From positions 364,528-428,383 of the forward strand of contig NW_004797570.1 in assembly GCF_000002075.1 (NCBI RefSeq): a stretch of 63,856 nucleotides of DNA, in the 5' to 3' direction. The notes below the pieces were generated by a model that saw nothing but the letters and a program-made list of their open reading frames with translations, was not told where the DNA came from and did no database searches. Both the position numbers and the translations under genes were made by a program. This document shows, in pieces, positions 17,766 to 59,200 of this stretch (the stretch's first letter is position 1; each line of letters opens with the position of its first letter). This DNA comes from Aplysia californica (taxonomy: Eukaryota).

Positions 17766-20700
17766 AAACACTCTAACAACACAGCCACTAAACACCCCGA
17801 TGGACAACATGCCCACCCTACATACTGACCAAAAAACGAACTTTTACTCTGGCAACATGACATACCCATTCTCCACACTGACCTCAAACCCACCCAACAT
17901 AATAACAATAAATTGCACCTAATACACCCACCATACACCGGGCGTGTCCCTGCCCTCCACTTGGAGGTGGCCTCCGACTCTTCCTGCCTGAGATGTCTAT
18001 CCACCGTGGCCTGGAGGTCTGCCACCTCACACAGACTGAGTGATGCAGGAACCCTCTCAACAGTGTTCTCTGAGGCCTTTTCTGTAAAAACATGTAAGAG
18101 GTTGAGATTACAGAAGACACAATAATATCAAGTCGACGTTGAGATAAGAGCAACACGTACCATACTGAGAAAAAAAATCTTAGCAACAATTTGAGCCCTA
18201 CCCATCTACCAAATCTACAGGGTCTATGCACCTCAGCTCCTGTATATTGATGACCGCTAGATACACACTGTCATACACTGAGGAATGTATTTTGTGCACA
18301 GAAGGGCATAGATAGTCACACTCAGGCATGTCCTCAGGCTCATCAGGTCAACATTATCCCAAAAAATCGAAAATTTAGCAAGATCCTTGGATCCCCCCCA
18401 CCTACCTTCTAATGGAATTGAGAAACCTTAAAACCAAATGGAATTTGGGAACTGTAAACACTAACCGGCTGAACACTGGTGAAAATGATGAGATTTTAGT
18501 TCTCGTTCAATAAAAACAATTAATTTTACAATGTCCCTTCGGTCAACAAATATCCATAGACAGGAGATGACTGCACCTGAAGCTTGTTCCCCCAGCCGTT
18601 CTCTCCGTTCTTGTGAGGGCAGAGCCAACCACTGGTGCTCACTCATGTAGTGCAGGGACTCACAGTTCACATACACTGCGCTACCTCCTAGATAGAGAAG
18701 AGAAGACTTTATTTCTCAAAACTCGCAGAGAGACACATGCTGCTGTAAATGTGTGAATGTGTGCACAGAATCACTGCACTTCTCATGAGGGTACACCCTC
18801 TACAAAGTACATTTATCCTGGAAATCTTATGGAGACAAAAGTGAACACATCCCAGTATATCTTACAGAGAACATTCTGTACAAAATATTAGTGTACTTAT
18901 CGAAATAGGCCTTCACCTTATACAGAACATATTTTAGCACAGAGTACATTGTACATATATCAAACATCTTAAAGCAAAACATTATGTTAAGATTCACCCA
19001 TTTTTATTTAGAAAAAGCTATGTTTATCTTGCTACGAACAAATTTCAAGACAGAAATAAATCACAGACCCAGAAGAATAAAGAGGACTCACAGGGGCTTG
19101 CTCCAACTACTTTATCTGACTGTATTTAGTATAATCTCACCTGTATCCTGCTCGCTGACTCGTCTCCACAAGGCTCCATTGTCTTGGGCAACTTCCATCA
19201 CTGGCTCATCATCACAGCCCATAAGAGAGTCTGTTCTCCCTGTCTCTGAGCTCGCAGATTTACTCCCAGCTCCCATCATTTCCTGAAGGCCTGACGTTGG
19301 TGAACTGCACTTTACAGTCTTGTGCGCTGTTCTGCACCCAGCTGTGACCTCCTCAGGGTGTCTCCCACATACTGAACCAGCAGAAACTATACTGTCAGGG
19401 TCACCAGTATCCTCAGAGTCCCCTGCTATCATACCAGTTTGGCCAAATGAGAGATGACCCTGGCCACTGTGCAAGCCTTGCAGGTGACCACTTTGCGCTA
19501 CTAGGCTACCGTCACCTGATGCGTGATGTCCTCTTTCAGACTCAGAATCATCTACAACATGGTCAGTCTCTTTCACAGAAGGAACAGAGAGTGTTAATAA
19601 GGCACTCTCCCTGTCTCGAGAAAGTACAGGACTGTTGTGCTCTGTGATATCTATCCTGTCTTTGGATGTAGGGGGAATGTTGCTGCAAGGGAGACTGACC
19701 TTCATCAATGTCTGATCCCCGGAGCTGGAAAATTGAGCTGTTAGACTGTGGTTAGAAGTCTGATCAGGAAACTGCTCACTGTCCTCTGTTTGACCCCTGA
19801 TGACCCCCTCCTTCAAAGATGGAGTGGAGGAACAGTCAATATGATCCCTGATCTCCTTCACCATTTCAGCAGATTCAAGTTCTGGCCTGGGGAGAAAGCT
19901 GACGTTTGAGTCCTGAGAGAGCCCCTTTGTCTCACATTCAACATTAGGGCAAAGTAGCCCTGGGCCCTGGTTTTCTTTCTGGTTCAAGCTCAGTTGCCCA
20001 TAAGGCACATCTTCATGTCCATTACCATCCGTGGTATGCAGCCTGTGATGGATTTGGTCCTTCACACCAAAATCATTGCTGAAAGACTTTGTACGGCTAA
20101 GGGCAGCGGGGAGGCAATTCCCAAGAGTGGAAACAGAACTCAAAAAAGGAAATGAGTCGTCCCCTTTTTCCTCATCACAGCCTTCTGTAAACGCTGACAT
20201 TTCAGTTTGAGCACACTGAAGAGATACCTCCAGCCTCTGTCTTCCACATGGGTAACCCTGATCTAGATCTGTACACGAGGGTAGCTCCCAATTTTTATCA
20301 GGCACAACGTCTGGCTTTGCCATCATCTTTTCTATGTTTGAAAAAACTTCCCTGGTCTGAGAGAGTATACTCTGAAGATCTACCTCTTTACCTGCTGCTT
20401 TCCCACACCCATGTGACTCTCCTCCATGGCTATACGTCTGCTGGGAGGCAAAAACTTGCACTGTATTATGCCATGGAGGAAATTCTTCAGTGTCAGGAAC
20501 AGTGTCTTGGTTGAGAGAATCATAGGCTAGAACTGTCTGCCGTGACTCAGACGGGGACTCCTTCGACCCCAGTGCCTCAAACTTATCATTCGATTGACTC
20601 TGCAGGGATATACTCTGCAGGTCAATCATAGCTTTTCTTTCTTTCTGCACTGCCAACAATTTTCCTGAAGCATTCCTCCAAGGATTCATTGGTGAGCGTA

Positions 20701-23700
20701 AAATCAGTGAGTTCCCATCGAAGTATGAGGACTTCGAGAGCAGACCCATAGATGTCTCACCCACCTCACCACAACCGGCCAGCCCCACAGTATCATTTAC
20801 AGTTCTCCCCTCTACAAGCACTTGACCAGTAGTGAGCACTGACCTTTCCCTCTCCTCCCCCGTACTGCCATCGATGAAAGACTGGACCTTGCCACAGGAT
20901 ACTCTACAATTTGAGTCAGGGAGATTCACCGGATGCTGGGGTTGTGGAACTCCAGCTACATTGTCCTTCTCTCGCTCACTATTTTGTTCATCAGCCTGAG
21001 CATCTGCTATATCAGGTATCCCCACTTCACAGTCAAAGGGACTCAAGCTGGAGATGAAGTTCAGTGACGTCTCAGGACACATCTGACCACCATCAGACAC
21101 AAAGCCTGCCTGAATGTCTTGTGAAGACTTGATCGTGTTTCTGCCTTCTGAATCACAGATCTCACTGGAGCCAACTGACGGGCTAGAAGAACATGTTTGT
21201 CCTTCATCCCTCTTCTGAGCTTGACTCAGCAGTGAATCTGCAGCTCCTATGTCTCCTATTGTCTGTTGAGGCACTGAAAATCCTTGAGAAGGAAGTGGAC
21301 TGGGTGGGGAACTCGTAGAGGTCACAGGAGGGCAGGTACTTTCTCCACAACCCAGTTCTTGGGGAGAACTGCTTACACTGATGGGGGTCACAGTGCGACA
21401 TTCCTGGTGAGTGGGAAACCCTTGTGACAAGACAAGAGGAAACTTCCCTTGAGATTGTGGACACTTGAGATTTTTGTTGTTCAGGACATCCTCGTGTGTT
21501 GACTGCCCTGACTGCCCATCCATGCTGCAATTTCCAGGGCTACAGTGAGCAAGTGATACGTCAGCCTTATCATCTTTGTGAGCATCTTGACTTGAGGAGT
21601 TCAAAGGAAGGGTCAGTACCAGGGATAGTGTAGGAGACTTGTCCCTGGTCTCAGCTCTGTTCTCTGAACTCATTTGTGTCTGATATTGACTAAATGGCAA
21701 TCGTTTTCCTGTGACGGACTGACTTGAAGGGTGACTCCCGCTTGACTGACACACTGCCTGCTTGTCAGAGAAATCCATGTCACCCACTGGTCCTTCTCTC
21801 TGTCCATCAGTTACATCACATATAGACATTCTATCAAATCTTTCTGTCCGTTGACGTGACGAGAGTGGTCTATTAGTGTCAACACTAGACCTGCCATAGC
21901 GGAAAGACTGTAAGAGCTTAGTGTGTCTCGACCGCCCACAATCTTGACTTTGACCTTTTTCGTCCACAATGCCAGAATGAACTGTCTCTCCTCGCATCAA
22001 ACGGGCTAGCTTCGAGGCATGACTCACACGTTGGGACAATCGCTTTGACGGAATGGCGGAGCAGTGCACACTAGAAACTTCCTGTCTTTGGTCAAGCTGA
22101 GGCGCTTCGAGTTTGGTTACACTGTCACGGGAGGACATGGAACAGCTCTTATTCTTATCGTTGAGCAGTCCTGAGGCTGGTAAACCAAAGGAGAAAGATT
22201 CAAAAGCTCTTGAACTTTCTTGTTGAGACACGCTGTGCTCTTCTCCATGAGTTGTCCTCGACAGCTTGATCTGAGGTGCAGGATCAATATCATCCAGTCT
22301 TTTGCGTGATGCTCTCTCAGGAGTTTTAAAGCTGTTTCTTAGCATGGCATTTCTTGACTGCTTTAAGGATTGTCTCAGATCTTGTAATGTGTTTGTCACC
22401 ACATCTGACATCTTCTCAGGTGCGGTCCTCACACGACGACAGCTCTGCAGACTCGAGGAATATGACACAGATCTTGACTTTGCTAAAGTGATTGGCTCCT
22501 GTGATTTGATTGCATTATTTTTCTGTAAAGTGAGGCCATGTCCAACGGGGTCTTCACTTGACATTCGTCTTTTGCTCCCTACAAGCAACTGACACTGATC
22601 AAAACCTTTGGAGACAACAGACTGACAAGGGGCTGTTGGTGATTCAGAGTTTGGAAAACTCAAGCTGCGTCTTGTAAACCTTGGAAGTGGAGGGTTCAGC
22701 GTGAGAGGGAAAGCCTTTCCAGCTCTGTCAGGGGTGTTCTCTGAGAGTGAAGGTCTGTCTTTACATGGATTATGTGAAGCGATGTGATAAGCTTCGTCAC
22801 CCAACTGCTGATTCTTAGCATCATTGTTTGGCTCTGGAGGGGACTTAATTGGTTGAGTAGACAGGCAGCTAACCCTTACTGTGTTTTCTCCACAACTTGT
22901 TTCACAGCAAGGCGCTTGAGCATCCTGCGCCTTCCCAGAACTGCCAGTGGTCACAGTGCAAACATCTTCGGAGTGACCCACAGCTACTGCATGACTTTGT
23001 TGTGAACTGCCAGTCATAGACTTTGGGCTTGACCTGCCATTGAACTCCCCCATAAAGTCATTAGCATCCTTTTGATCTCTTTCAACAACTTGCTTTGGTC
23101 TTTTCACAGACTTAGACTGTAAGAATGTCTCGGAACTGTCCATACAGCTATTTCTTCCAAACGATTTCATTAAACCTATTGCCTTTTGGTTCGGATCATC
23201 ACGAAAGTCAATATCGAGAGGTTGAAAAGAAGAGACGGACTCGCTTGGACTACTATCACTCTCAACATCTGCATCCACAATGTCATCATCTTTATATTCC
23301 TTTTCATTGGTGGGAAATGGCCCTGAAAGCAAAGGTTCTGAAACTGAGATAAGATTTTCTGTTCGCAAGAATCCATAAAGCATGTCCTGAAGGAGATGGA
23401 TGAGCTTAGGCCAATCTTTAAACTCTACCAATGTCTTGGCTGGATCAAAAGTAATGTCATAAGCACTGAAAGGACACTCCACATTGAGAACATAAATCCC
23501 AAATCTCTCTGCGGACTTCACTGGGCTCCCTGAGTTACCTTTCCCATCCTCAGTTGCCATCTTTTCCAAAGCATCAATGTTTGATCCTTTTCTTTTCAAA
23601 ATTAATGATCGGGAGAGTATCTTATTGATTTGCCGATGAATACTAGATTTTAGGACCAGTCTTTTATTGACATAAACAAACTGGAGATTTTTGCGACTGT

Positions 23701-24821
23701 AGCTCTCCTTGCTGACAATCCCAGAGAGTTTGAACTCATCTCTCTCAGCGCTGACTTCCATCAAAGGGCGAGCACGAGCGGGTGAGAACAGACAGGAGAA
23801 GGAGGACACAAGCCCACTACACTTGTGTGTCTGCAACAACACATGGCCTATTGCGTCATCCCGCAGGCTGAAGCTGATGCGAGGCCACACCAATGCGATC
23901 CCTGCAACACGATAACGTATCCTCTCCATCTCCAAGTCAGCATGAAGTCTTTTCCTCCTGACAGGCAGATTGTAGAAGAGGTCATGAGCGGTCACAGTGG
24001 TGCCCGGGGAAGGGCGGGCCACAGAAGACTGCAGTACATCGAAGGCTTGGCCTTTCTGAAAACATTTAGAAAAAGTGACACTAGACGATTTAGCTCTCGA
24101 TGTCACCTCCAGAAAAGATGAAGCACTTCGTAAACTGGCCAAAGCTTCTCCACGGTAACCAAAGTAGTTAAGATGCTCAAGGTCTTCCATTGTGTGGCAC
24201 TTACTGGTAGAGTACCTGAGAAGTACACACAAAAGACACTTGTTTAACAAAAGAAACAGTGGTGAAAAGCACAAGACAAATATCTGTGTAACAAAAGAAA
24301 CTCTAGTGTAAAGCACACACACCTGTATGGCAAAACTAACACTGGTGTAGGGACACAGCTAATGAAAGGGTAGCACAACAAATACCTGTCTGTGTAGGGA
24401 AAAAATACTTTGGTAAAGTACACCAAAAAATGCCTGTGACACACATTTAAAACCTGTGTAAAGGACACTAGAAACATCTATCGGACTAAAAGTACAAGAT
24501 AAGCCAGAATATTTCTCCTGTGCAGTTATTACTGTCAGACTGTGCTACAAGTCCAAAGGTTTCAGAACAGTCAACACACAGATCACATCCCTCAAGAACC
24601 ACTAACCTTTCCCCGACCAGTGGGAACTGCTCAGTTGTGATTCCTAAGCCATTGTCCACCACTTGTATCTTGAAGCAAGAGAGATCAATGCGTACAGCTA
24701 CACTGGTGGCGCCAGCGTCCACAGAGTTGAGTACCAGCTCCTCCACTGCCTGTGCTAAACTCGTCAGAGCCACTCCTGTTCGGAGGCAAGCCTTCACCTC
24801 ATTTGGGAGGCGTCGAATCAT
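8119..24821 (-). CDS. MLH3: DNA mismatch repair / meiotic crossover endonuclease MLH3 (MutL-gamma subunit), 14 coding exons, about 2152 aa
   Basis: Exons on the minus strand: 24821-24607, 24215-19141, 18687-18577, 18081-17932, 17547-17474, 16559-16455, 15703-15640, 14822-14733, 13690-13556, 12043-11913, 11002-10979, 10046-9968, 9268-9111, 8166-8119. All are GT-AG and phase-compatible, totalling 6459 nt. GHKL ATPase motifs ELVLNSVDAG, DNGLG, GYRGEAL and GTTV are present. MLH3-type C-terminal motifs WKNPVF, VIGQLDNKFIAC, DQHAVHERVRLE, SQACHGAVKFGD and LPFQCAHGRP are present. Confidence 0.96.
8735..9080 (+). mobile_element. tRNA-derived SINE with CORE-like central domain and L2-like tail, in the last MLH3 intron
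   Basis: A-box-like TGGTAATCTAGTGG and B-box-like GGTTTGAATC, then TGTCCCTGGGAAAGGCACT...CACCCAGGTG and a GTAAAGC...(TAT)n tail. Related 3' halves lie at 15170-15378 (+) and 16697-16806 (-). Confidence 0.65.
10085..10250 (-). mobile_element. Retroposon 3'-end fragment (hairpin-tail family)
   Basis: Diverged reverse-complement match to the copies at 53060-53235 and 63050-63230. Confidence 0.65.
10290..10970. repeat. Degenerate AC-rich minisatellite (UG-rich on the MLH3 transcript)
   Basis: Recurrent units such as ACTGACAGTCACACAG and ACAAACAACAA. Confidence 0.7.
12916..13010. repeat. (GAT)n microsatellite
   Basis: About 30 GAT units. It produces spurious poly-D and poly-H ORFs. Confidence 0.95.
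13325..13505. mobile_element. 181-bp TIR element with 6-bp TSD
   Basis: TIR CCTGTCCC/GGGACAGG, TSD CAAGTT at 13319-13324 and 13506-13511, internal GCATAATTT repeats. Confidence 0.7.
15170..15378 (+). mobile_element. 5'-truncated SINE (same family as 8735-9080)
   Basis: Shares GTGGGAA...GATCTT.TCAG...GCACTGTAT...GGTCTGCTGGG...GTAAAGC and the (TAT)n tail. Confidence 0.65.
16697..16806 (-). mobile_element. SINE 3' tail with (AAT)n microsatellite
   Basis: The reverse complement reads GTAAAGCGTATAGAGCATGCTGTAGAGC...(TAT)n, matching about 15313-15378. Confidence 0.6.
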
Positions 24822-26926: not shown

Positions 26927-27405
26927 GGCCACCTCTATTCTCACCCGGAGTGAGAATAGTGCAGGCGAGTCTTGTGGCTATTCTCACCCGGTGCGCGTTC
27001 ACCCTAAACCACAGAATTCTACACTGTGATAACAGAAAAATTGTAGAATTCTGTGCCGTGAACAAACGTTCCATTACAATTGTAGCCTACTAAAAGCGTA
27101 CAATTTTGTCTGTGGGCAGTGGAGAGAGAGAGAGAAAGAGAGAGAGGAGTAGCGCGAGAATTTCCGGGCAAAACAAAATGGCGACCCGCGTAGTTCGGCT
27201 CGATTCGAAAAGTTAAATAGCCGTAGCATCTTTGTAGACAACCAAATTTATTTACTTTTGTGTTTTAACATCATTTTTTAACTTTGTTTTGGTCAATTTG
27301 ATCGTCCACACCGATAGACAGTATTCAGAAAGAGACGGAGAGAGAGAGAAGAGGGGAGGAGTTGATCTTGCGAGAACTTCCGGGCGGGTGAGAATAGCCA
27401 CTTTC
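26927..27405. mobile_element. Mutator-like (MULE) non-autonomous element with sub-terminal inverted repeats
   Basis: 9-bp TSD GGTTAATTA at 26918-26926 and 27406-27414. The ends read GGCCACCTCTATTCTCACCCG and (reverse complement) GAAAGTGGCTATTCTCACCCG. About 215 bp of it recur inverted at 45808-46023. Confidence 0.75.
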
Positions 27406-31300: not shown

Positions 31301-33746
31301 ATTTCCCCACAAACCAAGGCGCAATTAATTGCGTAGTTCAATATTATAACTCTTATGTTATGCTTAAGGATGGAATAGATAGCGCTTTTTCTGTTCATTT
31401 TTATCCTTTTTACACAAAACTTGACTTTAACTCTCTAACTACTGGCCCCTTTCACCAGTCACTAACGCTGAGTACTGCATAGCTGCCACTTTCCCGCTAA
31501 ATAGCGGAAACTCCGCTTTATCTAGCTTTTCCCGCTACTTTCCCCCTTCCTCCACTGGACCGCTCTCGGTCGCAAATTGCGATACTTTTTTTTTTCACAC
31601 GCGGAAAACACCGAACCAGGAGAGAGACGAAAACGCAGCTTGTGCATGACGCATGTCCGCCCGTAGCTTTTTATTTCCGTTCTTCTAGGCCTAGCGCTAG
31701 TTTCACTTTGTTTATTGTGGAGCAACAAAGTGTCGATTGGGCATCGAGACGTTGGCGCGCTGAGTTGTCATTGAAAACAGCGGAAATTCGAGAGAAATTG
31801 ATGCAGAATGCAAAAATAAAAGGAGCTGGAATGAGAAAGAAGCAGCCGCGACTTGAAAAGTTCATTAGTAAATTGAACAAGCGCTTGCTGCACTTTGCGT
31901 TTGGTGTGATAAAGAAATCGCGGCCCGCGGCACTCTTGTACAATTGCGGTCCCGTTTGTTTACATGATGGCTATTGTGGCTGTGGAAGTGAATCTAGATA
32001 TAATCTATCTCTAGATGTAATCTAGATTTACACATATTTAGATATCTAGATGTAGATTAGATAGCCTAGGCTATAAATTTTAATTCAGTGTAGATCTACA
32101 CACTACAGGGGCACTACCAAGTTAAGTGCGAACAGGACCGCAATTGTACAGGAGTGCTCAGTACAGCGGCAAAGGTGTTGCCTCCTTGATCCAATACTGC
32201 GCGCACTCTACATCGATGTACAAGTTTAAAGTGAAAGAAATCTTTTTATAAGACCCCAGCTGGCAACAAACTCTGGATTTTTAGTCACCAATTCCAAACT
32301 GTGTCAAATTGACTCAAATGTTTGTTTGTCAACTTAATGCCTTGGGGGGGGGGGGGGGGGTGTTTGTGGCAGCTATGGTACTGGCATTTTTTAGGGTATT
32401 TCAAAACGCCACCACAACTCTCAGAATTATCCTATTATAATAATTTTTTTGACACAGTAAAGTTACTTTCAAACTTAATCTATTGCAAAAAAATTAAGTT
32501 CTCTAGGTCTAATACTTAAATTCTTATGATTGTTTCAAAATTGGAAGGAATTTGATTTTTCGAAAAATTTCCAGAGAAGTGACAGATAGAATGAAATTCA
32601 CAACAACAACAAATATAAAAATTCAAAGTGTTCTGTTTTGATTTGTATCCATGTGTGAGTGTTTGATGAAAATATAAATTCAAAAAAGTAAAAGCTGGTC
32701 TGTATGTTGATTCAGACACACATACACTGAATTACATGAGACAGATGTAGGGAACGAAGTTGTGATTTCGTCGTAATTTTTCAAAACATTTTTAAAAAAT
32801 ATATTTTAAGATGTAGGCCTTATTGTTTGTGACAGCATACCCCTCTCCAGGGATGGATATTTTCAATAAAATTACAGTAATTTTGATTTTCTCTGTCATT
32901 TTCCGTAAGTGGGACCCGACGTCCTGTCTCCTTTCTCTTCTCAGAAAGTGCTTCTCTCTCACACTTTCTTTCTCTCTCTGTTCCTGTCTCCTTATTTTTC
33001 TCTCTTTCTCTCTCTGTTCCTGTCTCCTTATGATGCCTTATCTTTCTCTATCTCCNNNNNNNNNNNNNNNNNNNNNNNNNNNNNNNNNNNNNNNNNNNNN
33101 NNNNNNNNNNNNNNNNNNNNNNNNNNNNNNNNNNNNNNNNNNNNNNNNNNNNNNNNNNNNNNNNNNNNNNNNNNNNNNNNNNNNNNNNNNNNNNNNNNNN
33201 NNNNNNNNNNNNNNNNNNNNNNNNNNNNNTTTTGGACTGATCAGTTTCTATCCCTGCCTCTGAAACCCGCCAGATCTTTCAGATCATGTGAAATATTCCT
33301 CCACAATCAGGTGTATAACTACAGTGTACAGTCAAACCTGGAGGCTATTTTTCTTTCACTCCCTTTTCATGAAGTGCATCTGCATTCACAAGTAAAAAGA
33401 TGATGTGTTGGCAGGACAAGTGGCTTGTGGGCGGAAAAATATTCATTTTCGTTACAAACTGCTTTTATTATAAAGTTTACATCGTGCTTTTGATTTTCCA
33501 TTTCAGCTTTTTTATTCCTTCTTCAAATCTCTTGTTGGCAAAGAAGTGGTTGTGGAGTTAAAAAATGATCTCTGGTAAGTTCCTTTTTTTTTTAGGCTGC
33601 CATACTTCTGTGTGGTGACGTAGACAACTTTGGCTGACTTTTTCACTCTTTGCATGTGTGGTTTTTTTTTTACTGTTCTAATAATGTAGATATTATGCTT
33701 ATGTTTAGTTTCAATGTAATATCATTAAGTCATTTGGCATGCTGTG

Positions 33747-44210: not shown

Positions 44211-45508
44211 CTATCCCCTTTGAGACCGGGCCTTTCTTTTTTTAAAAATGCATAGTACATGCATGTATATAATTAAGCTACATAATATATTTCTAAGAAT
44301 TATTTCTCTTTTTGTGTTGGGGAGGAAACGGGATCGAATTAACGACTGGCTAGATGCAAGGAGGGTATTTTTTCTCCTTTTTTCTGTTCTTTTTCACGCT
44401 ATGGTCAAAACGCCGACTCCTGCATGATTGCAGCGAACAACAACATCGATTTTGGTGGCATAAAGGTCTTTTTTTTTATTGAACCCTCCCCCCTTAAAAA
44501 AAAAAGCAGCTCCCTTCCTCTTCCAAAAATTTTCTTCGCTTAAGTCAATATTTATTAGTATGTTTCAGAGGCGGAAAAATGAACATGGTGTTTTATTATT
44601 GTATTATTCAAAGGAAAATAATTAATTTCACGTTTAAAGGTAACATTTTGCATGGGGGTTATGTTGTTTCGTTTTCAAGGTCTCGTCAGCTGTAAATAAT
44701 TAGTCTTTTTAATAGACTGATGGAGTATTGCCGAGTTGCTTTTGTCCTCTCAAATTGTTCGCTTATTCTGCAGTGTGGCTTATATTATGTTTTAGTTTTT
44801 AAAAGTAGTAGGCTAGTTTTAGGAATGAGCCGTAATACAAAAAATATTTTTAGGTAAATATCTAGCCGACTGGATGCTGTTCATATTTTTTTCTTTTCAT
44901 GTTTGAATTTTAGGTACAACAACTAATTTGAGCAACTACCTCATGGATTATCTGGCAAACGTGCATGAACCATTCAAATTTCTGCATGTGCTCGTGTTTA
45001 CATTTGTATTACACATGATTTTTCAAGGTAAATCGGCTATAACAGATCTTCTTGGCACATTAACTGATGGTAATATTAATTTCTGTATTTGAATTAGCTG
45101 TGGATGGAATGTCACGTTTAGTTATTTGTTCTTACTTGTATAGATCTACAGGGTATAATTGATTCGACACCTGTGACAAGGCCCTACTAGATCTAGCTAC
45201 ACCTACACTACTACACTACTGGTACTGGCGGGCGTGTGTGAGTGTATGTCCTCGTCCTCGTACTCGTATGTGGTTCTCTTTTGTCTTCTAGAGATCTAGA
45301 TCTAGATCTAGATCTAGATATTAGATCTAATACTGTAGGCCTATTACAGTGTCTGTGACAATAGTGACAGTCTGTAAGTCTGCACTGTGAATGATCATAT
45401 CCTGTGACATCATATGAGTAGATATCTAAATCTAGATTCTAGATCTAGATCTAGAGATCTAAGATCTAGAATCTAGACTCTCTGTGCAAATCTACCTTTT
45501 TTCCCGGC

Positions 45509-47373
45509 AAGTCTAGCCGTACTTAACTATGGCTAGACTGCCAGTCTAGCCGTACTTATTTTTAATATGGGCGATGGCTGGACTGACCATTAAAAAAACG
45601 AAGTGATTATTCGGACTCGAGTCCGAATATGAAAAAATGTTATTCAGACTCTGATTCTTGTCCAGCATTCTTGACTCGAGTCCGAATAAGAAATTTTTTT
45701 ATTCGGACTCGAGTCCGAATATGAAAATTTTTTATTCGGACTCTAGTCCGAATAACGACGGCCTTGCCTTAGAAAAATCGAAGTGACTATATGAAAGTGA
45801 CAGAAAAGAAAGTGGCTATTCTCACCCGCCCGGAAGTTCTCGCAAGATCAACTCCTCCCCTCTTCTCTCTCTCTCTGTCTCTTTCTGAATACTGTCTATC
45901 GGTGTGGACGATCAAATTGACCAAAACAAAGTTAAAAAATGATGTTAAAACACAAAAGTAAATTAATTTGGTTGTCTACAAAGATGCTACGGCTATTTAA
46001 CTTTTCGAATCGAGCCGAACTACACTTCCGACTTCCTGTGACTCGTGACTCCAGCTTCCTGTCCTGCCTCACTCGTGACTCGCCTCTGGCTGGGAAGAGA
46101 CCGGGATCACTTCGGGCAAAATGGCGTTTTGTGCAGGAGCCAAGTTTTTATCTTATAAATGATGAATTTGAGGTCGGCCTGAAAAGTTATAGCGCTTCTA
46201 ATAAATGTTTATTTGTCAAGAGGTCATTAGAAGCAATTAAAGATGGCTCGTTAGCGTGTGTTGGGGTCGGATGGGCGGCCTGCACACGTGTTGCTGTGTG
46301 CGTGTCGGGGAGGGGGATGGGGGGCACTATCGGTCCGGGCGTTGAACATCGCATACGTGTCAGTCTTTTTCCCCCGGCAACTGATCATTATTACAATAAT
46401 AAGCTAGTCTTGACGTAAATCTATGTAATGAATTGTGCGCTGGTCTATGGAATCAAAAGTTGCCGTATGCTCAGCTCTACACAGCAACACAACTTTTTCT
46501 TGGTAAACAATAGAGATGATACAGGCTTGTGTATTTGAACGAATCTGTCTTTTTTTTTTTACACAGCTCATAATATGCAGGTGCCAGGTGGTCTGCTAAT
46601 CTTCAATTTTACCTTTTTCTACAACAAATTGAAGAAAGTGGGAAACGTGGGGGGGGGGGGGTATCAATGAGGCGGCGGGCATCGGATCGGCAGAAAAGGT
46701 GTGTGGGAAACTAAAAAATGGTGGAAAATTGGAAGCATTGAACGTTAGATCTATAGAACGAAGACACTTCCTTTGTTCCGGACCCGAGTCCGAATAACAT
46801 TTTTTCATATTCGGACTCGAGTCCGAATAAGAAATTTTTTTTTTCGGACTCGAGTCCGAATATGAAAAAATGTTTTTCAGACTCGAGTCCGAATAAAGAC
46901 GGCCAAAAAAAATAGGCCTACTGAATTGTAAACCTAAAGTATTTGTATTTGAGACGAAATCAGGTGCTTTAATGACTGTGCATGTATTTTAAACCCCCTG
47001 TTTTCTAATGTTAATAATAGGGCCTACGATAAGTACGGCTAGACTGCCAGTCTAGCCTTACTTTTAAGTACTTAAGTACGGCTAGACTTCTTGGCTAGCC
47101 GTACTTAAGTACGGGTAGACAGCCAGGCTAGCCGTACTTAAGGACGGCTAGACTGTCAGGCTAGCCGTACTTAATATTGATGGCTGAATTGTAAATGAAA
47201 TTTTTAGTTTGCAATGCCTAAAGTATTTGTATTTCAGACAAAACCAAAAGGTGCCTTACTGACTTGCATGTATTTGAACCTGAATAATTACTAGATCTAG
47301 ATCTAATGAGACCTGTGTACTTAACAGGTTTGAGTCGATAGGGCCAAACCTGGATCTAAGTACGGCTAGACTT
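45509..47373. mobile_element. Foldback-like composite element bounded by 17-bp inverted repeats and containing palindrome arrays
   Basis: AAGTCTAGCCGTACTTA at 45509-45525 and TAAGTACGGCTAGACTT at 47357-47373. Arrays of CTAGCCGTACTTAAGTACGGCTAG variants (45510-45557, 47029-47173) and of ATTCGGACTCGAGTCCGAAT (45608-45753, 46776-46894). Confidence 0.6.
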
Positions 47374-47386
47374 AGTTTTTTTTTAA

Positions 47387-47986
47387 GGCTGGCTCTATTT
47401 CTGTGAACAGTTGGAAAAATAAACTAAACTTGAAAGTTGAACTGTATGTTTATTTCTCCGAACGGTTTCCCTTTTCGAGATTTGTTGTCCATTGTTGATA
47501 ATTTGCGAATGGAGTGGCCCGTGTGTGTGTGTGTGCGTGTGCGCGCATTGTGTGTGTTTAAGTTGTGACAGGGCATATATAGGGGCGGGGGTGGAGGGAT
47601 TTTTTGTTTTGTTTACATGAAGGATGCCTTTAGTTTTTGCTTTAGGGATGACTCAATGTAAAATAGGTTACTGCTGAGGTCGAGTCGAGCAATCTTTGTT
47701 TTCTCGCAGTAGCCTACCTTTCAAATGAACAAGTATAGAGATCTAGTCTGGGGACGTTGCCCCAACGACAATTGAAATATCTGAATATTCAGACATTTAA
47801 AAATCTCTTGCTCTAGAAATTGATTTTGATGCAAAAAGTGCTTCTTCCGAGTCCTCGCAGAATGGCAGAAAATGAAAGATGACGACTAAATCTCGCAAAT
47901 AGTCAAAATATCTCAAGAACGGAAACCGTTCAGAGAAATAAAGATCAAGTTTATTTTCCCGAGCGTTCGGAGAAGTAGTCACTTCG
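47387..47986. mobile_element. MULE-like element with long imperfect TIRs
   Basis: The ends read GGCTGGCTCTATTTCTG and (reverse complement) CGAAGTGACTACTTCTC. Internal inverted segments at 47451-47490 and 47881-47940. T-rich imperfect TSD. Confidence 0.5.
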
Positions 47987-48149
47987 TGTTTTTTAAAGGA
48001 AGTGGTTATTCGCGGTTGAGAATAACCCGTGTCTCGCTATTCTCACCTCCTCGTTTTACCGTTAATGACTCTAGAGGGATCAGGGATGAGGTTACTGTGC
48101 TTTTGGATCGCGTCTATCCCACAGATTTCGACCCACCGGGGCAGCGCCA

Positions 48150-48500
48150 CTGACTGTAGTGTCTTTAGGCCATTCCCAAAGGGGGGACATTTCTCGTTCA
48201 AGCACAGTAGAATTGTAAATGGGCTGATTCGTCATGTCACGCTCATAACTGTGCCTGATCTTCAACAGGGAACTGCTGCTTTTTCTTTCCTAATCCTTAC
48301 TATTGTCATTTTCCTCTACTTCTTTTGTATGTTTGTGACTCGCTATTTCCGGGGTGCCTTGATAGTTGAAGCAGGCCTTTTACTTTTGAAGCTAGAGAGG
48401 TGAGCAGAGTAAGTCTGATTCCCTGTAAAAATTTCTCTGTTGACACCCACCCCTTGGCGCTCATATGACCTTATGCAGTTGCGAGCGCCGCAAAACCCTC
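48150..48500 (+). mobile_element. Retroposon 3' portion (hairpin-tail family)
   Basis: Homologous to 41995-42375; GGCGCTC(48456)...GAGCGCC(48489) stem followed by an A-rich tail. Confidence 0.7.
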
Positions 48501-48699
48501 TACTAAAAAAAACAACAACAGAATTTCATTTGGCTCTCTGGATCTTTTTTGGCTCCACACTTCAAATGTTCAAGAAGAAAGGGAAAGTCTCTGAAAAAAG
48601 AGGCAAGAAAAAAAAAAGTGAAGAAAAGAGCTTAGATTGCTTAATTATTAAACTAGTTGACACGATTTAATGCCCTCGCCCATTTGGTCTGAATAATTT

Positions 48700-49451
48700 C
48701 GAAGTGACTATTCGGACTCGACAAAAATTATATTCAGATTCTGAATTGAGTCCAGCGTGACGTCCGTTCCGACTTTCTACCCTTGTTCCTAAATATATTT
48801 CCAGCTTTTACGAACATTTTTTCGATTATAATGATAACAATTGAGACATGAGCTTTAATAACCAGTTACTAGATCTATCTAAACTGGCCCTCCCTGCATC
48901 TTTAGTCTGAACAAAACGACTAAGTTGAGTTGACCTTGCCGGGGGCAAAGTTAAATGTTGACCAATGAGATTGCGCGTAGTGATATCGCACTCTCGGTTT
49001 GCGGGGGGAAGAGGCCACGACTGTCGGTTTTGTTTGATATGATTTTTTAAAAAAAATTACAGAAAAACTATAACTATAACACAAAACAAACTCAAATATG
49101 GAAAGACAAATGGTGGTAGAAGTAATGATGATGCTGTAGTGGTGATAGAAAGACCCTGAGTTGTTGGTTACCGTGTACATAGACACTGCCATTGGGTAGA
49201 TTTAATGAGAGTGCAGTCTTTTGACTTTTGACACAATTGCACAGTCCTCCTAGTAGGCAATTTATGGTTCTAATTCTGGTTTTACGTATAATCCCCAGAT
49301 GACACCCTTACACTCACATAACTCAGTTAGAAGCTTAGTCCAAAAAATAAAACATTTTTTTCGACCCGAGTCCGAATAGATAAAACCCATATTCGGACTC
49401 GAGTCCGAATAGATAAAAATTATATGGACTTGAGTCCGAATGGAGCTGGCC
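48700..49451. mobile_element. MULE-like element nested in 47998-49938
   Basis: 9-bp TSD GAATAATTT at 48691-48699 and 49452-49460. The ends read CGAAGTGACTATTCGGACTC and GAGTCCGAATGGAGCTGGCC. Palindrome array at 49360-49441. Confidence 0.78.
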
Positions 49452-50524
49452 GAATAATTTACAACCCTTCTACTGTAGTGCAAGAGCATTAGTTTCGTGC
49501 CCATGTCTCGTTACGTTCGTACACACTCTCTGTTCCTTGAACCATAATTTATTGTGTGTGTAGGCAGATAAGCCTGCCATCGTTAGTGTGTAAACAACAA
49601 ACGGTATGGTCCGGCGGGTGGCCGGTCCCTCATCCTGCGCACCAGGGTCTTAAGTGAGACATACTTTTTACATTATTATTATTCTATTTGTTGTTCATTA
49701 AAGATTAAATAAATTTAGCAAAGATCTGGTTAAGATGATCATATCTAGATCTATAATTTTAATATATATCTGTTCTGTTTCAAAAGTCTGACTCGTAATT
49801 TTCCATATATCCTGACTTTAATACCTGTAAGAGCGCTCACGCTTGAAGCAGTCCGAACTATTACATATAGCTACATTATGTCTTGGAGGAGAGGGGGGGG
49901 GGGCTGAGAATAGTGGGTCATGAGCTATAGAGGTGGCCTTTTTTAAAATAGGAAAAGGAAAGGTCTTAAAGTCTTAACATTATTTTAATTAATTAAGGGC
50001 AGTTAATTTCAAGTTCAAGGTAACGCCTGAACAGCTGTCAAAGTTTTAACACTTTGACATCACAAGGCTCATATAAAGTAAAAAACCTTGCCATCAAAGG
50101 CAACTAGGCGATTTGGGGAAAATCCAAAGATACTGGGTAGTAAACATCGCCGATCGGCGAGATGTGACAGCAAAGTGTTACTAGAGTACAGTGGAACTAG
50201 CCTGTTCTAAGCCACTACTGACATGTCTAAAGTCTACGTAAGTCTTAAAAAGACTAATTAACTTGGACCCACTACATCTACCCGTGCTTACCTAAGACTA
50301 AGTATCTCCTGTACAAACTGCAAAACGCTGCTTCCCATTCCCTCCCCTTTAATTTTCGTAAAGTGGGCCTATACTTTTAGGCCCGTCCCGCGGGTGGTGG
50401 GCAAATGTTCCCCGATTAAGCGTATTTTGGCACCTCGCCCTCCGCCCGGTCTCGTATTAGTCTGGCCTTAGCTCAGCGCATGCATGCCAAGCATCATCTG
50501 TGATGACCGGGTCCGGTATTCCAG

Positions 50525-56200: not shown

Positions 56201-59200
56201 GTTAGACCTAAATGTGTTTTTTTTTCTGGGCCTACCGGCATGAAAAAGGACCTGTCCTGTTATTGAAATGAGAATACATAATTTTGATGTGCCCTTTTAA
56301 GTCTTGTTGATAAATGACATTGTAATGGGTGGCTGTCTGTACTTTCAAAGAAGTGATAGTTTTTTTTAATATGGAGTAAAGCAGCATTGCTAATGAAAGA
56401 TTTGATCTTGAAGACTTTCTTGTAAAACGTTTTGTCTGATACTTTAAAGATCATTTCTTGTGCGAAATCGTGTTGTATTTTACACTGAAAGCAAAAGGAG
56501 AATACATTGACTTATTTTGATTTGACCTTCCTTGCAGGTCCCAGCTGTCTAGCTTTGGTCATTCACTCAGGTCTGGTGACTCTGCAGAAGACAGAGAGCA
56601 CTCTCGTAGCCACAACAGGAGTTCTCTCCACCGGGCAGACACCAGTAGAGTGTCTAGTGGTCACAGCTCATTACTGACCTCTACTCCTGTAAAAAGAGAT
56701 GGCCGAGTCTCCTCGGACACTTACACGCCCAGTCCTATCTCAGCACATCACCGTGTCACACCCAGTCCCATAGGAGCGCAGCGTGCAGTCAGTATTGTGT
56801 CAATGAGGGAATCTGTGTCACCAGGTAGCCCTGTTGCTGTACTGAGTGATGCAAAGCCAAGTGTTGTAGGGCAGGTAGAGGCAGTTGTGTCCAGTCCTGG
56901 TCAGTCATACCGAAGACCCAGGAAGTTGTGTCCTAGCCCACTGGCTCAGGAGACTTCATGCTCTGACACTTCGCGTTCAGGTGCACCTTTGAAGTCATCT
57001 TCATGGCTGTCTGCTACGAGTGAAGAACCTGGCGATGTGAAATTTAGCCCATCTCGTGGCTCGTCCACATCCTGGTCCGATATGGTACGGAGTGATTCAG
57101 CGGGTGAGATGAGAAAAGGCACAGAGAAGGGGAGTCCTAGTCTGACATCTAGTCACAACAGTACCGGCAGTCAACCTGGAGAGATGTTGCAAAGTGGGTG
57201 TGACCCTGTAGCAGGTCAAATTCTGGCCAGTCCCACAGCCTCATCCTCTCTTGAACGGCGACATCGAAAGGGCAACCAACGCAAGTGGACACCGCTATCT
57301 GCAGCCTCCACTGAGCCTAAGCAGATGGTGGGTGTCGGCGATAAGTCTCCGTCGCAGCTAGTGAGTCAGTCTGCGTGGAGTAGAGGGACCACTAGCTCCT
57401 CATCACTACAAGGCTCTGGCTTACTGGTCAGCGGGAAGTGTCGAGATTCGCCAGCCAGTCCCCTGCAAGAGTGGCCGCACAACGCCCGGAACAGCTCTCC
57501 TTCTGTAGCAGGATATGCTGGGGCCTGGGGTCATGGGGCTGCCTCTCGTGTCACCTCCCCTCTGGCTGCCCAGAACCATGATATCAATCCTGGTGACCTG
57601 GCCACAAAGTCCCAACCAAGGGTATCCCGGGCCTCTGTTGGAGACTCTTCATCCTCTCATATGGTGTCGCAACCTTCACCTTCTGTTTCGCCCATTCCAG
57701 GGGAGGTTTTGGCTGAGCAAAGTCAAAATGAACTGCGGAGAGGCAAGGGGAAGAAAGTTGGGACTTTAAATACGATCCATGGAGACGCCAAAGAGTGCAA
57801 GCCAGTGGCTGGTTCTCAGAGGTCTGGGAAGAGAAACAGCAACAACAATAACTACAATAAAATTCAACCTCTGACACTGGAAAACTTCATTCCAAAACCT
57901 CAGAAGGGGAAGGGGAAAAATTCATTACCGAAAAATGAAAAGGATATGATCTTGTTGAAGAGTCGTTTCATGGAGGACTTGAAGGCTAACCCAACCTCAC
58001 CCCCTAAGAAGATTCAACCGTCACCTATTAAAAGACTGAGTTTTTCCGATCAGAAAGCAGATCTTCCAACCCCTTTGGGTTCTGTGTCAGTATGTGGAGA
58101 TGGTGGAGATTCCCTGGCAGGTAGTGTTGAACAGTTGAAAAGTTTGAAAAAGTTGTTGAGTGATCGTGAAGGCACAGACCGACCACTGGATGAACCTGGT
58201 GTGTGTAAAACTAATCCCAGCAAACGGAGCCAGGTGGTTCTCAAAGACAAAACAGTGAAGGAGATTGATCTAAAGCTTGTGTGTTCTCTGGAAAAGTTAA
58301 TGACAGAAGAGGCCAATGGCAAAGATGTGTTTGAAGATGAAGACGAAGGTGAAGACGACTATACACCGACAGAGACAAGCCTTTCTGAAGCTAAGCAGTT
58401 TTGGGAACTGAGGCCAGTGAAAAGCTCAAGTCCGACGTCAAAGAGGTGAGTGTTAAAGAGCTCCTCTCCTGTGATCGTTTTTGGGTCTCAGAGGTTCTGC
58501 TTATGATTAATGGGCTCACTGCTCTAAAATCCATTCATGGCTGTTGTGTTTACTGTCTGTATGTGTTTCATTGTTGTCCTGCTTGTGTGTAAAGAATTTG
58601 TTTTTGTGACCACTTCGAGTCCTGGCTCTGGGCTAATGTTGAATAAAAGACTTTATTATCCTGTTCTCCTTTAGCCAACACGCTGTGAGACTATAATCAC
58701 CATTGTTAGTAAAGTGCAGGGAAACAATAGGCAAATCATGTAAATATATGAGGAGAATAGAATGATAGGAAAATATTTTAAGTAGATTCCTGTTTGATCC
58801 AAGTGGTCTGAATTAGAGCTGTGACAATTCTGATGGCTATGTAGGACTGACCATCACCAACGTTGAACAGTGAATTGATGTCTCAGACTCCTTTCTTGTT
58901 AGATGTCACAACAAGGGAGCTGTCAGTTGTCAGTGTAAATTATGCTGTATGGAGGTTTTATTTTCATATGTACGGTTTTGGTCTTGAGTTTATGCAGTTG
59001 TTCATCTTAGTTTTGTATTTTTCAATTTTGATATTGTGCAGTTGATGCTGATCCTGTGCTTGTACAAATTCCCCAGTACGATGCATCATGAGACAGCACA
59101 CGTGGCAGGAGCTGATAAGCCTGAGCTCGCCACCTCTTGCCCGCCGATAAGTGGAAAGGTGACTATGGGCGTTGACCAGGCCCCTGTAAAGGGTGTTGAA

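What the first reader, a model, noticed from the sequence alone, without database searches (positions are those of the whole stretch)
45509..49947. Nested cluster of Mutator-like elements with asymmetric termini and interchangeable palindrome arrays
Seen: at least three elements with perfect 9-bp TSDs (26927-27405, 47998-49938, 48700-49451) and related ones (45599-45763, 45779-46904, 47387-47986) share one end grammar. One end is (C/G)(G/A)AAGTG(A/G)YTA and the other is GGC(C/T). The outer 8-10 bp are not inverted repeats, but a family-specific inverted repeat starts at position 9-11 (ATTCGGACTC, CTATTCTCACCCG, CTA(C/T)TTCT). In one family that core is amplified into arrays of the perfect 20-bp palindrome ATTCGGACTCGAGTCCGAAT at about 33-bp spacing. 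A second palindrome, CTAGCCGTACTTAAGTACGGCTAG, brackets the 45.5-47.4 kb block in A-B-C-B-A order. The elements insert into A/T tracts, next to and inside each other. Established: 9-bp TSDs with sub-TIR or foldback ends occur in MULE/Phantom elements. Inference: a diversified system with conserved asymmetric cleavage ends and swappable transposase-binding arrays, concentrated in the open region upstream of CDAN1. This is the best candidate in the window for an undescribed family.
Basis: partly seen in the sequence, partly recalled or inferred. Interest (0 to 1): 0.7.

Follow-up and report, generated by a model that had tools for sequence, protein, structure and literature searches.

The report
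Mutator jumping genes with mismatched tips
This cluster is a pile-up of gene-less copies of cut-and-paste jumping genes that are common across this animal genome; their two tips differ and mirror-image motifs sit just inside, and they likely descend from Mutator-type elements whose enzyme resembles the animal ZSWIM3 protein.

Summary
The elements are real. They are non-autonomous DNA transposons with 9-bp (sometimes 8-bp) target duplications. The outer 8 bp differ between the two ends, and an inverted repeat starts at base 9. The end motif occurs 4,923 times genome-wide against 667 for its control, so the cluster is not special to CDAN1; clumping is genome-wide. The 45.5-47.4 kb 'A-B-C-B-A' block is a nested insertion, and 45599-45763 plus 45779-46904 are one element carrying a 354-bp filler. 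Arrays are not swapped between families (75 of 76 elements concordant). New evidence: the 45599 family and three sister families keep a first exon matching Pfam ZSWIM3_N. One 4.4-kb TSD-flanked sister element with this end type holds a decayed ZSWIM3_N-MULE-SWIM-PHD transposase. These are therefore likely MULEs of a ZSWIM3/FAR1-type clade, not FLYWCH Phantoms. The end design is known (nematode Tm1). No complete partner was found for the window's own families, and Repbase/Dfam could not be checked. This scan noted similar mismatched-end elements in other genomes, but not these sequences.

The parts
26927..27405 (-). 479-bp MITE ('core2' family): GAAAGTGG end at right, GGCCACCT end at left, exact 9-bp TSD; no coding remnant found
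   Evidence: 1,443 first-look candidates, 40 scored at 96-99%; of 30 fetched loci 17 have exact 9-bp and 4 exact 8-bp TSDs, ends fixed; no HMM hit
45506..45598 (-). one arm of a 'pal2' MITE (CTAGCCGTAC palindromes); terminal octamer lost or decayed
   Evidence: matches the far arm of intact pal2 copies, which end GGAAGAGG
45599..46904 (+). one 'pal1' element (CGAAGTGA ... GGCCGTCT) inserted in the A-tract of the pal2 MITE, carrying a 354-bp internal filler
   Evidence: aligns to canonical copies at 1-70 and 76-end, 88-90%; empty site and A-tract duplication
45669..46022 (+). filler: copy of a pal1 far-end array (to 45763), 15-bp spacer, orphan A-type octamer at 45779, and the first ~215 bp of a core2 element (from 45808, 99% to 27190-27405)
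   Evidence: junction not found elsewhere among 40 scored candidates
46121..46254 (+). ATG-initiated first exon of the parent transposase (ZSWIM3_N-like), frameshifted in this copy
   Evidence: open copies hit only PF21599 positions 4-37, E 0.0015-0.002, below the curated cut-off; local HMM hit in the window copy E 5e-8 (profile included a pal1 peptide); independent profile hits 12 pal1 copies, 0 in reversed controls
46777..46904 (+). far-end array of four ATTCGGACTCGAGTCCGAAT-type palindromes at 33-bp spacing, ending in GGCC
46905..47373 (-). remainder of the pal2 MITE; its CGAAGTGG end is truncated
   Evidence: 80-91% to intact pal2 copies
47387..47986 (-). 600-bp 'pal4' MITE (CGAAGTGA|CTACTTCTCC ... 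GGCTGGCT|CTATTTCT), imperfect A/T TSD
   Evidence: related copies 68-79%; family ends validated by TSD in 5 other copies
47998..49938 (+). probable older core2-like element (GGAAGTGG ... GGCCACCT) that has collected unrelated repeats and the 48700 element; low-complexity TSD, weakly supported
   Evidence: no second copy of its right end among 40 scored candidates; one 77-bp match near its left end
48700..49451 (+). 752-bp pal1-subfamily MITE (CGAAGTGA ... GGCCAGCT), exact 9-bp TSD
   Evidence: full-length relatives at 80-83%

Best explanation
The window holds nested, gene-less copies of several related cut-and-paste transposon families with mismatched 8-bp tips, palindromes from base 9 and 9/8-bp target duplications, likely mobilised in trans by MULE transposases of the ZSWIM3_N-MULE-SWIM type. 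Shown: TSDs, fixed asymmetric tips, a family-specific palindrome centred 20-23 bp inside the tip, arrays at 33-37 bp (about 50 in one family), retained transposase first exons, and one TSD-flanked decayed full-length sister element. Inferred, by analogy with Muta1: transposase binds the palindromes, probably as dimers through the N-terminal ZSWIM3_N/FAR1-like domain, about two helical turns from the tip. The DDE core would cut at the tip, whose octamer then need not mirror the other end, and extra palindromes would strengthen binding. A/T-rich targets, including the spacers inside earlier copies, would produce nesting and clumps. Families likely diverged by descent, each palindrome changing with its own transposase, not by swapping arrays.
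For: TSDs: 21 of 30 exact in the 479-bp family; 15 of 30 pal1 ends closed within 1.5 kb with at most 1 mismatch; 76 validated elements with 55 exact 9, 12 near 9, 8 exact 8 and 1 exact 10. Control: 27 calls in 138 real 10-kb loci vs 0, 0, 0 in shuffles. End motif 4,923 vs 667. No inverted second A-end in 30 consecutive hits. ZSWIM3_N first exon inside pal1, pal5 (E 8e-8, over cut-off; exact TSDs in 4 copies), family X and family Y. C319: family-Y end, then exon 1, exon 2 and a 661-aa MULE+SWIM frame with D-D-CxxH-W-E motifs. C7 (L265): 4,444 bp, exact 9-bp TSD, CGAAGTGG/GCCGGTGG tips, ZSWIM3_N + RNaseH + SWIM + PHD remnants. The pal5 peptide matches 22 and the pal1 peptide 2 of 150 MULE homologues, reversed controls 0; 11 of 12 chosen homologues carry ZSWIM3_N ahead of MULE. 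Palindrome centre 20-23 bp in 16 of 17 ends. Muta1: terminal motif plus subterminal repeats, 8/9-bp TSD (PMC5499845, PMC5225508, passages).
Against: No complete partner element was found for pal1, core2, pal4 or pal2. core2, pal4 and pal2 copies show no coding remnant, so their link is by end design only. The pal1 Pfam hit is 19 bits against a 27.8 cut-off. None of 20 PF10551 loci was bracketed by both ends and a TSD, and the right end at C319 was not found in about 13 kb. Several ZSWIM3_N loci lack such ends upstream (e.g. L252-L255, L266). The A-type tip is 3' of the gene at C7 but 5' in pal1, pal5, X and Y, so it is not tied to gene polarity. 9 of 30 core2 loci lack an exact TSD, and 18 of 30 unselected end hits were not closed within 1.5 kb. 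Three polyA runs gave no reads on the C319 MULE exon. No binding or cleavage assay exists.
Confidence: 0.75

Rival explanations
1. They are FLYWCH-type Phantom/Tm1 elements.
For: Tm1 has asymmetric 7-bp tips outside a composite TIR with tandem repeats, 8-10-bp TSDs and a Phantom transposase (PMC3169594, passages and Discussion part 1). FLYWCH-MULE relics exist in this genome.
Against: 0 of 20 FLYWCH-type loci were bracketed by these ends. The coding remnants inside the elements are ZSWIM3_N.
Confidence: 0.07
2. Some families without coding remnants (core2, pal4, pal2) belong to another superfamily with 8-9-bp TSDs (P or Merlin; TSD lengths recalled) and only converge on the end design.
For: No transposase trace in these families. 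An earlier scan note assigns similar mismatched-end hairpin elements in another genome to P elements (unchecked).
Against: They share the tip octamers with exon-bearing families (pal4 = pal1 CGAAGTGA; core2b = pal5 GGAAGTGG; pal2 far end = family X GGAAGAGG) and the same 20-22-bp palindrome position. P and Merlin families were not searched in this genome.
Confidence: 0.12
3. One modular system in which conserved tips recombine with interchangeable palindrome arrays.
For: The same A octamer pairs with different cores across families. Chimeric junctions exist, such as the window filler and a hybrid end at C22.
Against: 75 of 76 TSD-validated elements have matching cores at both ends, and far-end octamers are family-specific. 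The window chimera is single-copy among scored candidates.
Confidence: 0.06

Closest known systems
Tm1 of Meloidogyne (Phantom/foldback MULE; PMC3169594, passages and Discussion part 1 of 2 read)
   Same: Fixed, different short motifs at the two tips outside the inverted repeat; variable-number subterminal repeats; mostly 9-bp TSDs; mostly MITE-like derivatives.
   Different: Tm1 tips are 7 bp, its repeats are direct ~14-mers and its transposase is FLYWCH-MULE. Here tips are 8 bp, the repeats are 24-30-bp palindromes with A/T- or G-rich spacers, the transposase is ZSWIM3_N-MULE-SWIM(-PHD), and one tip motif is shared by at least nine families.
Muta1 of Aedes aegypti (PMC5499845, PMC5225508; passages read)
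   Same: Terminal motif plus subterminal repeat array, unequal repeat numbers at the two ends of derivatives, 8- or 9-bp TSDs.
   Different: Muta1 ends are symmetric with a palindromic terminal motif and it shows no target preference. Here tips differ, the repeats are the palindromes and targets are A/T-rich.
Curupira and 'MULE-Mollusca' (PMC6446971 Table 1 and supplement rows; original Curupira paper not seen)
   Same: Animal MULEs listed without TIRs; Curupira has a 9-bp TSD and SWIM.
   Different: These elements do have inverted repeats, offset by 8 bp. Sequence relationship was not tested.
Rehavkus (PMC6446971 passages and Table 1)
   Same: 9-bp TSD, subterminal repeats, PHD finger (present in the C7 element).
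   Different: Rehavkus is placed as a MULE outgroup in insects and annelids with 26-400-bp TIRs. The C7 protein has ZSWIM3_N and SWIM. Not compared by sequence.
ZSWIM1/ZSWIM3-type proteins (Pfam PF21599, PF21056)
   Same: Domain order ZSWIM3_N, RNaseH-like, helical, SWIM.
   Different: Here the domain set lies inside TSD-flanked mobile elements. That vertebrate ZSWIM1/3 are domesticated MULEs is inferred from Pfam overlap and recalled; one search listed no paper on it.

Membership tests
MULE/Mutator superfamily | 8-11-bp TSD | tested here: met
   range from PMC6446971
MULE/Mutator superfamily | MULE DDE transposase within the element ends | tested here: inconclusive
   Met for sister element C7 (decayed) and on one side at C319. 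Only an N-terminal exon for pal1; none for core2, pal4 or pal2.
MULE/Mutator superfamily | D-D-E triad with (C/D)xxH and W motifs | tested here: met
   C319 frame: motifs at residues 131, 194, 217, 278 and 300 (located by eye and by analogy with PMC5499845)
MULE/Mutator superfamily | Terminal or subterminal inverted repeats | tested here: met
   inverted repeat from base 9 in 66 elements
MULE/Mutator superfamily | Cut-and-paste activity | not testable with these tools
   needs an excision assay; no RNA reads on the C319 core in 3 runs
Phantom (incl. Tm1) | N-terminal FLYWCH domain | tested here: not met
   the N-terminal remnant is ZSWIM3_N; 0 of 20 FLYWCH-type loci carry the ends
Phantom (incl. 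Tm1) | Sub-TIR/foldback ends with short non-inverted tips | tested here: met
   definition via PMC3169594 (Marquez & Pritham 2010 not held)
Curupira | 9-bp TSD and SWIM finger | tested here: met
   SWIM weak in Pfam (E 0.01 at C7, 0.1 at C319)
Curupira | No TIRs | tested here: not met
   offset inverted repeats present
Curupira / MULE-Mollusca / Rehavkus | Clade membership by DDE phylogeny | not testable with these tools
Repbase/Dfam curated family | Consensus match | not testable with these tools
   no such library held

The most novel reading that the evidence does not exclude
A ZSWIM3-type MULE clade splits end recognition in two. A tip motif conserved across the clade is read by the catalytic core, and a family-specific palindrome fixed two helical turns inside is read by a fast-evolving N-terminal domain. 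This would give at least nine natural domain-site pairs for decoding ZSWIM3_N/FAR1-like DNA specificity, and would mean that some animal MULEs listed as 'non-TIR' (Curupira, MULE-Mollusca) are offset-TIR elements of this kind.
Probability: 0.3. Interest if true: 0.6.

Novelty: new variant of a known kind. Interest (0 to 1): 0.36.

Why it matters
It gives ends, target-site length and MITE derivatives to a widespread transposase family: 3,797 representatives at E<=0.001, known in Pfam mainly through ZSWIM1/3. Standard TIR finders would miss ends whose first 8 bp do not match (inference). The fixed palindrome position with variable sequence is a ready specificity test. With about 4,000 excess ends in strong clumps, the clade is a notable local mutagen in this genome. 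The basic end design is already known from Tm1, which limits surprise.

Tried and rejected
PF10551 loci: 20 of 37 fetched at 10 kb, 10 of them extended to 30 kb; none bracketed by both ends and a TSD. PF20700 loci: 20 of 114; no such ends seen, the middle of that output was cut at one locus. FLYWCH-type loci: 20 of 56 matches; none. Longer pal1 elements (2-4.6 kb) are insertions into the MITE, with no ORF of 200 aa or more; an apparent 11.7-kb pair was two separate elements. C22 (pal1 end 2.1 kb upstream of a MULE core) and C157 (pal5 far end 5 kb downstream) are suggestive but not closed by TSDs. The A-like end at C568 was dropped because its first bases belong to another repeat. First control gave 76 false calls because it kept N runs and 12-mer blocks; it was redone. 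The classifier labelled 4 pal5 elements as pal1 at both ends. Protein database searches with exon peptides gave one 84-aa near-identical fragment and nothing. The Atlas was unavailable. Run search: no RNA holder listed. RNA laid on 44.5-57.5 kb mostly hit multicopy repeats, with no start-site pile-up and no reads at 56.2-57.5 kb, so nothing on promoter position. CDAN1: no PDB hit for two frames, weak Codanin-1-only hit for a third. Strict helical phasing of arrays was rejected: spacings are 33-37 and about 50 bp. P and Merlin transposases were not searched. Paper searches listed no description of these families; subscription journals, Repbase Reports and bioRxiv supplements were not visible.
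Full report
Observation. The three stated 9-bp TSDs are exact; one (47998-49938) is a low-complexity T/A run. The window is G000:C300 in a 927-Mb animal genome; earlier scan notes call it a gastropod or sea hare, which I did not test. The 479-bp element has 1,443 first-look candidates. Of 30 fetched top copies, 17 have exact 9-bp and 4 exact 8-bp TSDs, 2 are near matches and 7 have none, and the two unlike tips are kept. The pal1 left 25-mer occurs 387 times and its far 26-mer 206 times, controls 0. 15 of 30 left ends are closed within 1.5 kb by a far end and a TSD with at most one mismatch. The general tip motif occurs 4,923 times against 667 for the reversed pattern. In 30 consecutive hits, 12 were closed within 1.5 kb and none had an inverted second copy of the same tip.

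End design. Across all fetched DNA, 66 elements with an exact TSD show inverted-repeat matches of 0.08-0.61 at bases 1-8 and 0.86-1.0 at bases 9-21. The far end starts GG in 63 of 66. The same test gave 27 calls in 138 real 10-kb loci and 0 in each of three shuffles; a first, flawed control gave 76. The far octamer is family-specific and not always GGC(C/T): GGAAGAGG (pal2, X), GGGTGACC (Y) and GCCGGTGG (C7) occur. The first palindrome is centred 20-23 bp from the tip in 16 of 17 ends. Array spacing is 33 (pal1, pal2), 34 (pal5), 35 (core2), 37 (pal4) or about 50 bp (Y). Both ends carry the same core in 75 of 76 elements; the exception is two elements sharing one target. Swapping of arrays is therefore not supported.

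Re-reading the window. 45599-46904 aligns to one canonical ~950-bp pal1 element at positions 1-70 and 76-end. The 354 bp between are a filler made of a pal1 far end, an orphan tip and ~215 bp of core2, and this junction was not found again among 40 of 996 candidates. The flanking second palindrome belongs to another MITE family, and the empty A-tract site is seen in 10 distinct copies. So A-B-C-B-A is nesting. 47998-49938 is a probable older element filled with unrelated repeats.

Not special to this locus. The window has 6 motif ends against 0.34 expected, but clumping is general. 41 of 88 ends on the three largest contigs have a neighbour within 5 kb against 4.9 expected (maximum 20 in 5,000 simulations). 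9 of 29 core2 copies have another end in their flanks against 0.46 expected (some are tandem duplicates). TSDs are 85% A/T against 59% background. CDAN1 downstream is plausible but weakly shown (E 0.11, only Codanin-1 hits; no hit). RNA gave no start-site information.

The transposase. MULE, PF20700 and FLYWCH-type loci, 20 of each, were not bracketed by these ends. The link came from inside the MITE. About 170 bp in, pal1 has an ATG exon (46121 here, frameshifted) whose only Pfam match is ZSWIM3_N (E 0.002, under the cut-off). A profile built without pal1 hits 12 pal1 copies and no reversed control. Searching PF21599 led to sister families with the same design and a first exon: pal5 (E 8e-8; exact TSDs in 4 copies), X and Y. 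At C319 a Y end leads to exon 1, exon 2 and a 661-aa MULE+SWIM frame with the catalytic motifs. The assembly is one base out of frame at the exon 2/3 join, and a contig of run X1 has one more base there. The right end was not found, and three polyA runs do not cover the core. At C7:1830837-1835280 a 4,444-bp element with an exact 9-bp TSD and CGAAGTGG/GCCGGTGG tips holds decayed ZSWIM3_N, RNaseH-like, SWIM and PHD segments; a shorter second copy shares both ends. There the conserved tip is 3' of the gene, unlike the other families. The C319 protein has 3,797 relatives at E<=0.001. 11 of 12 chosen for long N-termini carry ZSWIM3_N before MULE, and the pal5 and pal1 peptides match 22 and 2 of the 150 listed. 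core2, pal4 and pal2 have no coding trace, so their assignment rests on shared tips and geometry.

Mechanism. Shown: the anatomy above. Inferred from Muta1, where the terminal motif is needed for joining and subterminal repeats aid binding, cleavage and excision (PMC5499845, passages): transposase binds the palindromes, likely as dimers via the N-terminal domain, and the core cuts about two turns away at tips that need not match. A staggered 9/8-bp cut in A/T-rich DNA, including spacers of earlier copies, would explain nesting.

Comparison and novelty. Tm1 already shows asymmetric tips outside repeat-rich TIRs with 9-bp TSDs (PMC3169594, passages and Discussion part 1), but with a FLYWCH transposase. 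Curupira and MULE-Mollusca are listed without TIRs, and Rehavkus with a PHD finger (PMC6446971, passages, Table 1 and supplement rows); these were not compared by sequence. A 2026 arthropod survey kept only TIR-bearing MULEs (PMC13359780, passages). PMC8293314, PMC10236294 and bioRxiv 10.64898/2026.02.11.705288 were seen as passages and added nothing on ends. Marquez & Pritham 2010 was not held. Seven searches listed no description of these families; Repbase/Dfam could not be checked. Verdict: a real set of MITE families, likely of a ZSWIM3-type MULE clade; a new variant of a known kind; interest 0.36.

Noticed in passing
window 19112-24358 (-): 1,748-aa open frame with a DNA mismatch-repair C-terminal domain (PF01119); MLH3-like large exon by recall. 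The 26927 MITE lies 2.6 kb beyond its 5' side.
   Followed up: no
window 2811-3773 and 4224-5162 (+): Reverse-transcriptase fragment and a 7TM receptor frame.
   Followed up: no
window 48150-48509, 52.3-53.6 kb: Unrelated repeats that draw hundreds-fold polyA read depth from other copies.
   Followed up: no
window 56521-58449 (+): 642-aa Ser/Pro-rich open frame in the presumed CDAN1 gene, with no Pfam or PDB hit; no reads on 56.2-57.5 kb in three RNA runs.
   Followed up: partly
window 45185-45480: Dense TCTAGA/AGATCT field directly left of the cluster; also common beside other copies.
   Followed up: no
L299 (G000:C1:791191-792623): A core2 and a pal1 element in tandem with the same 9-bp target present three times: repeat insertion at one site.
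   Followed up: partly
window 46118, 27175, 27376: YY1-like and ETS-like words (recalled motifs) in pal1 and core2; the pal1 word contains the exon's ATG.
   Followed up: no
L257, L263, L264: Family X has nearly symmetric tips (GGAAGTGT/GGAAGAGG), a possible intermediate between ordinary TIRs and mismatched tips.
   Followed up: partly
L074, L080 (C386, C33): 1,200-1,290-aa open MULE frames with an N-terminal protease-like region and C2H2 fingers by eye; ends not defined.
   Followed up: no
L161-L180: PF20700 loci often have a second convergent ORF and look unrelated to these ends; Kolobok-like by recall.
   Followed up: no
window 33056-33229: 174-base N stretch.
   Followed up: no
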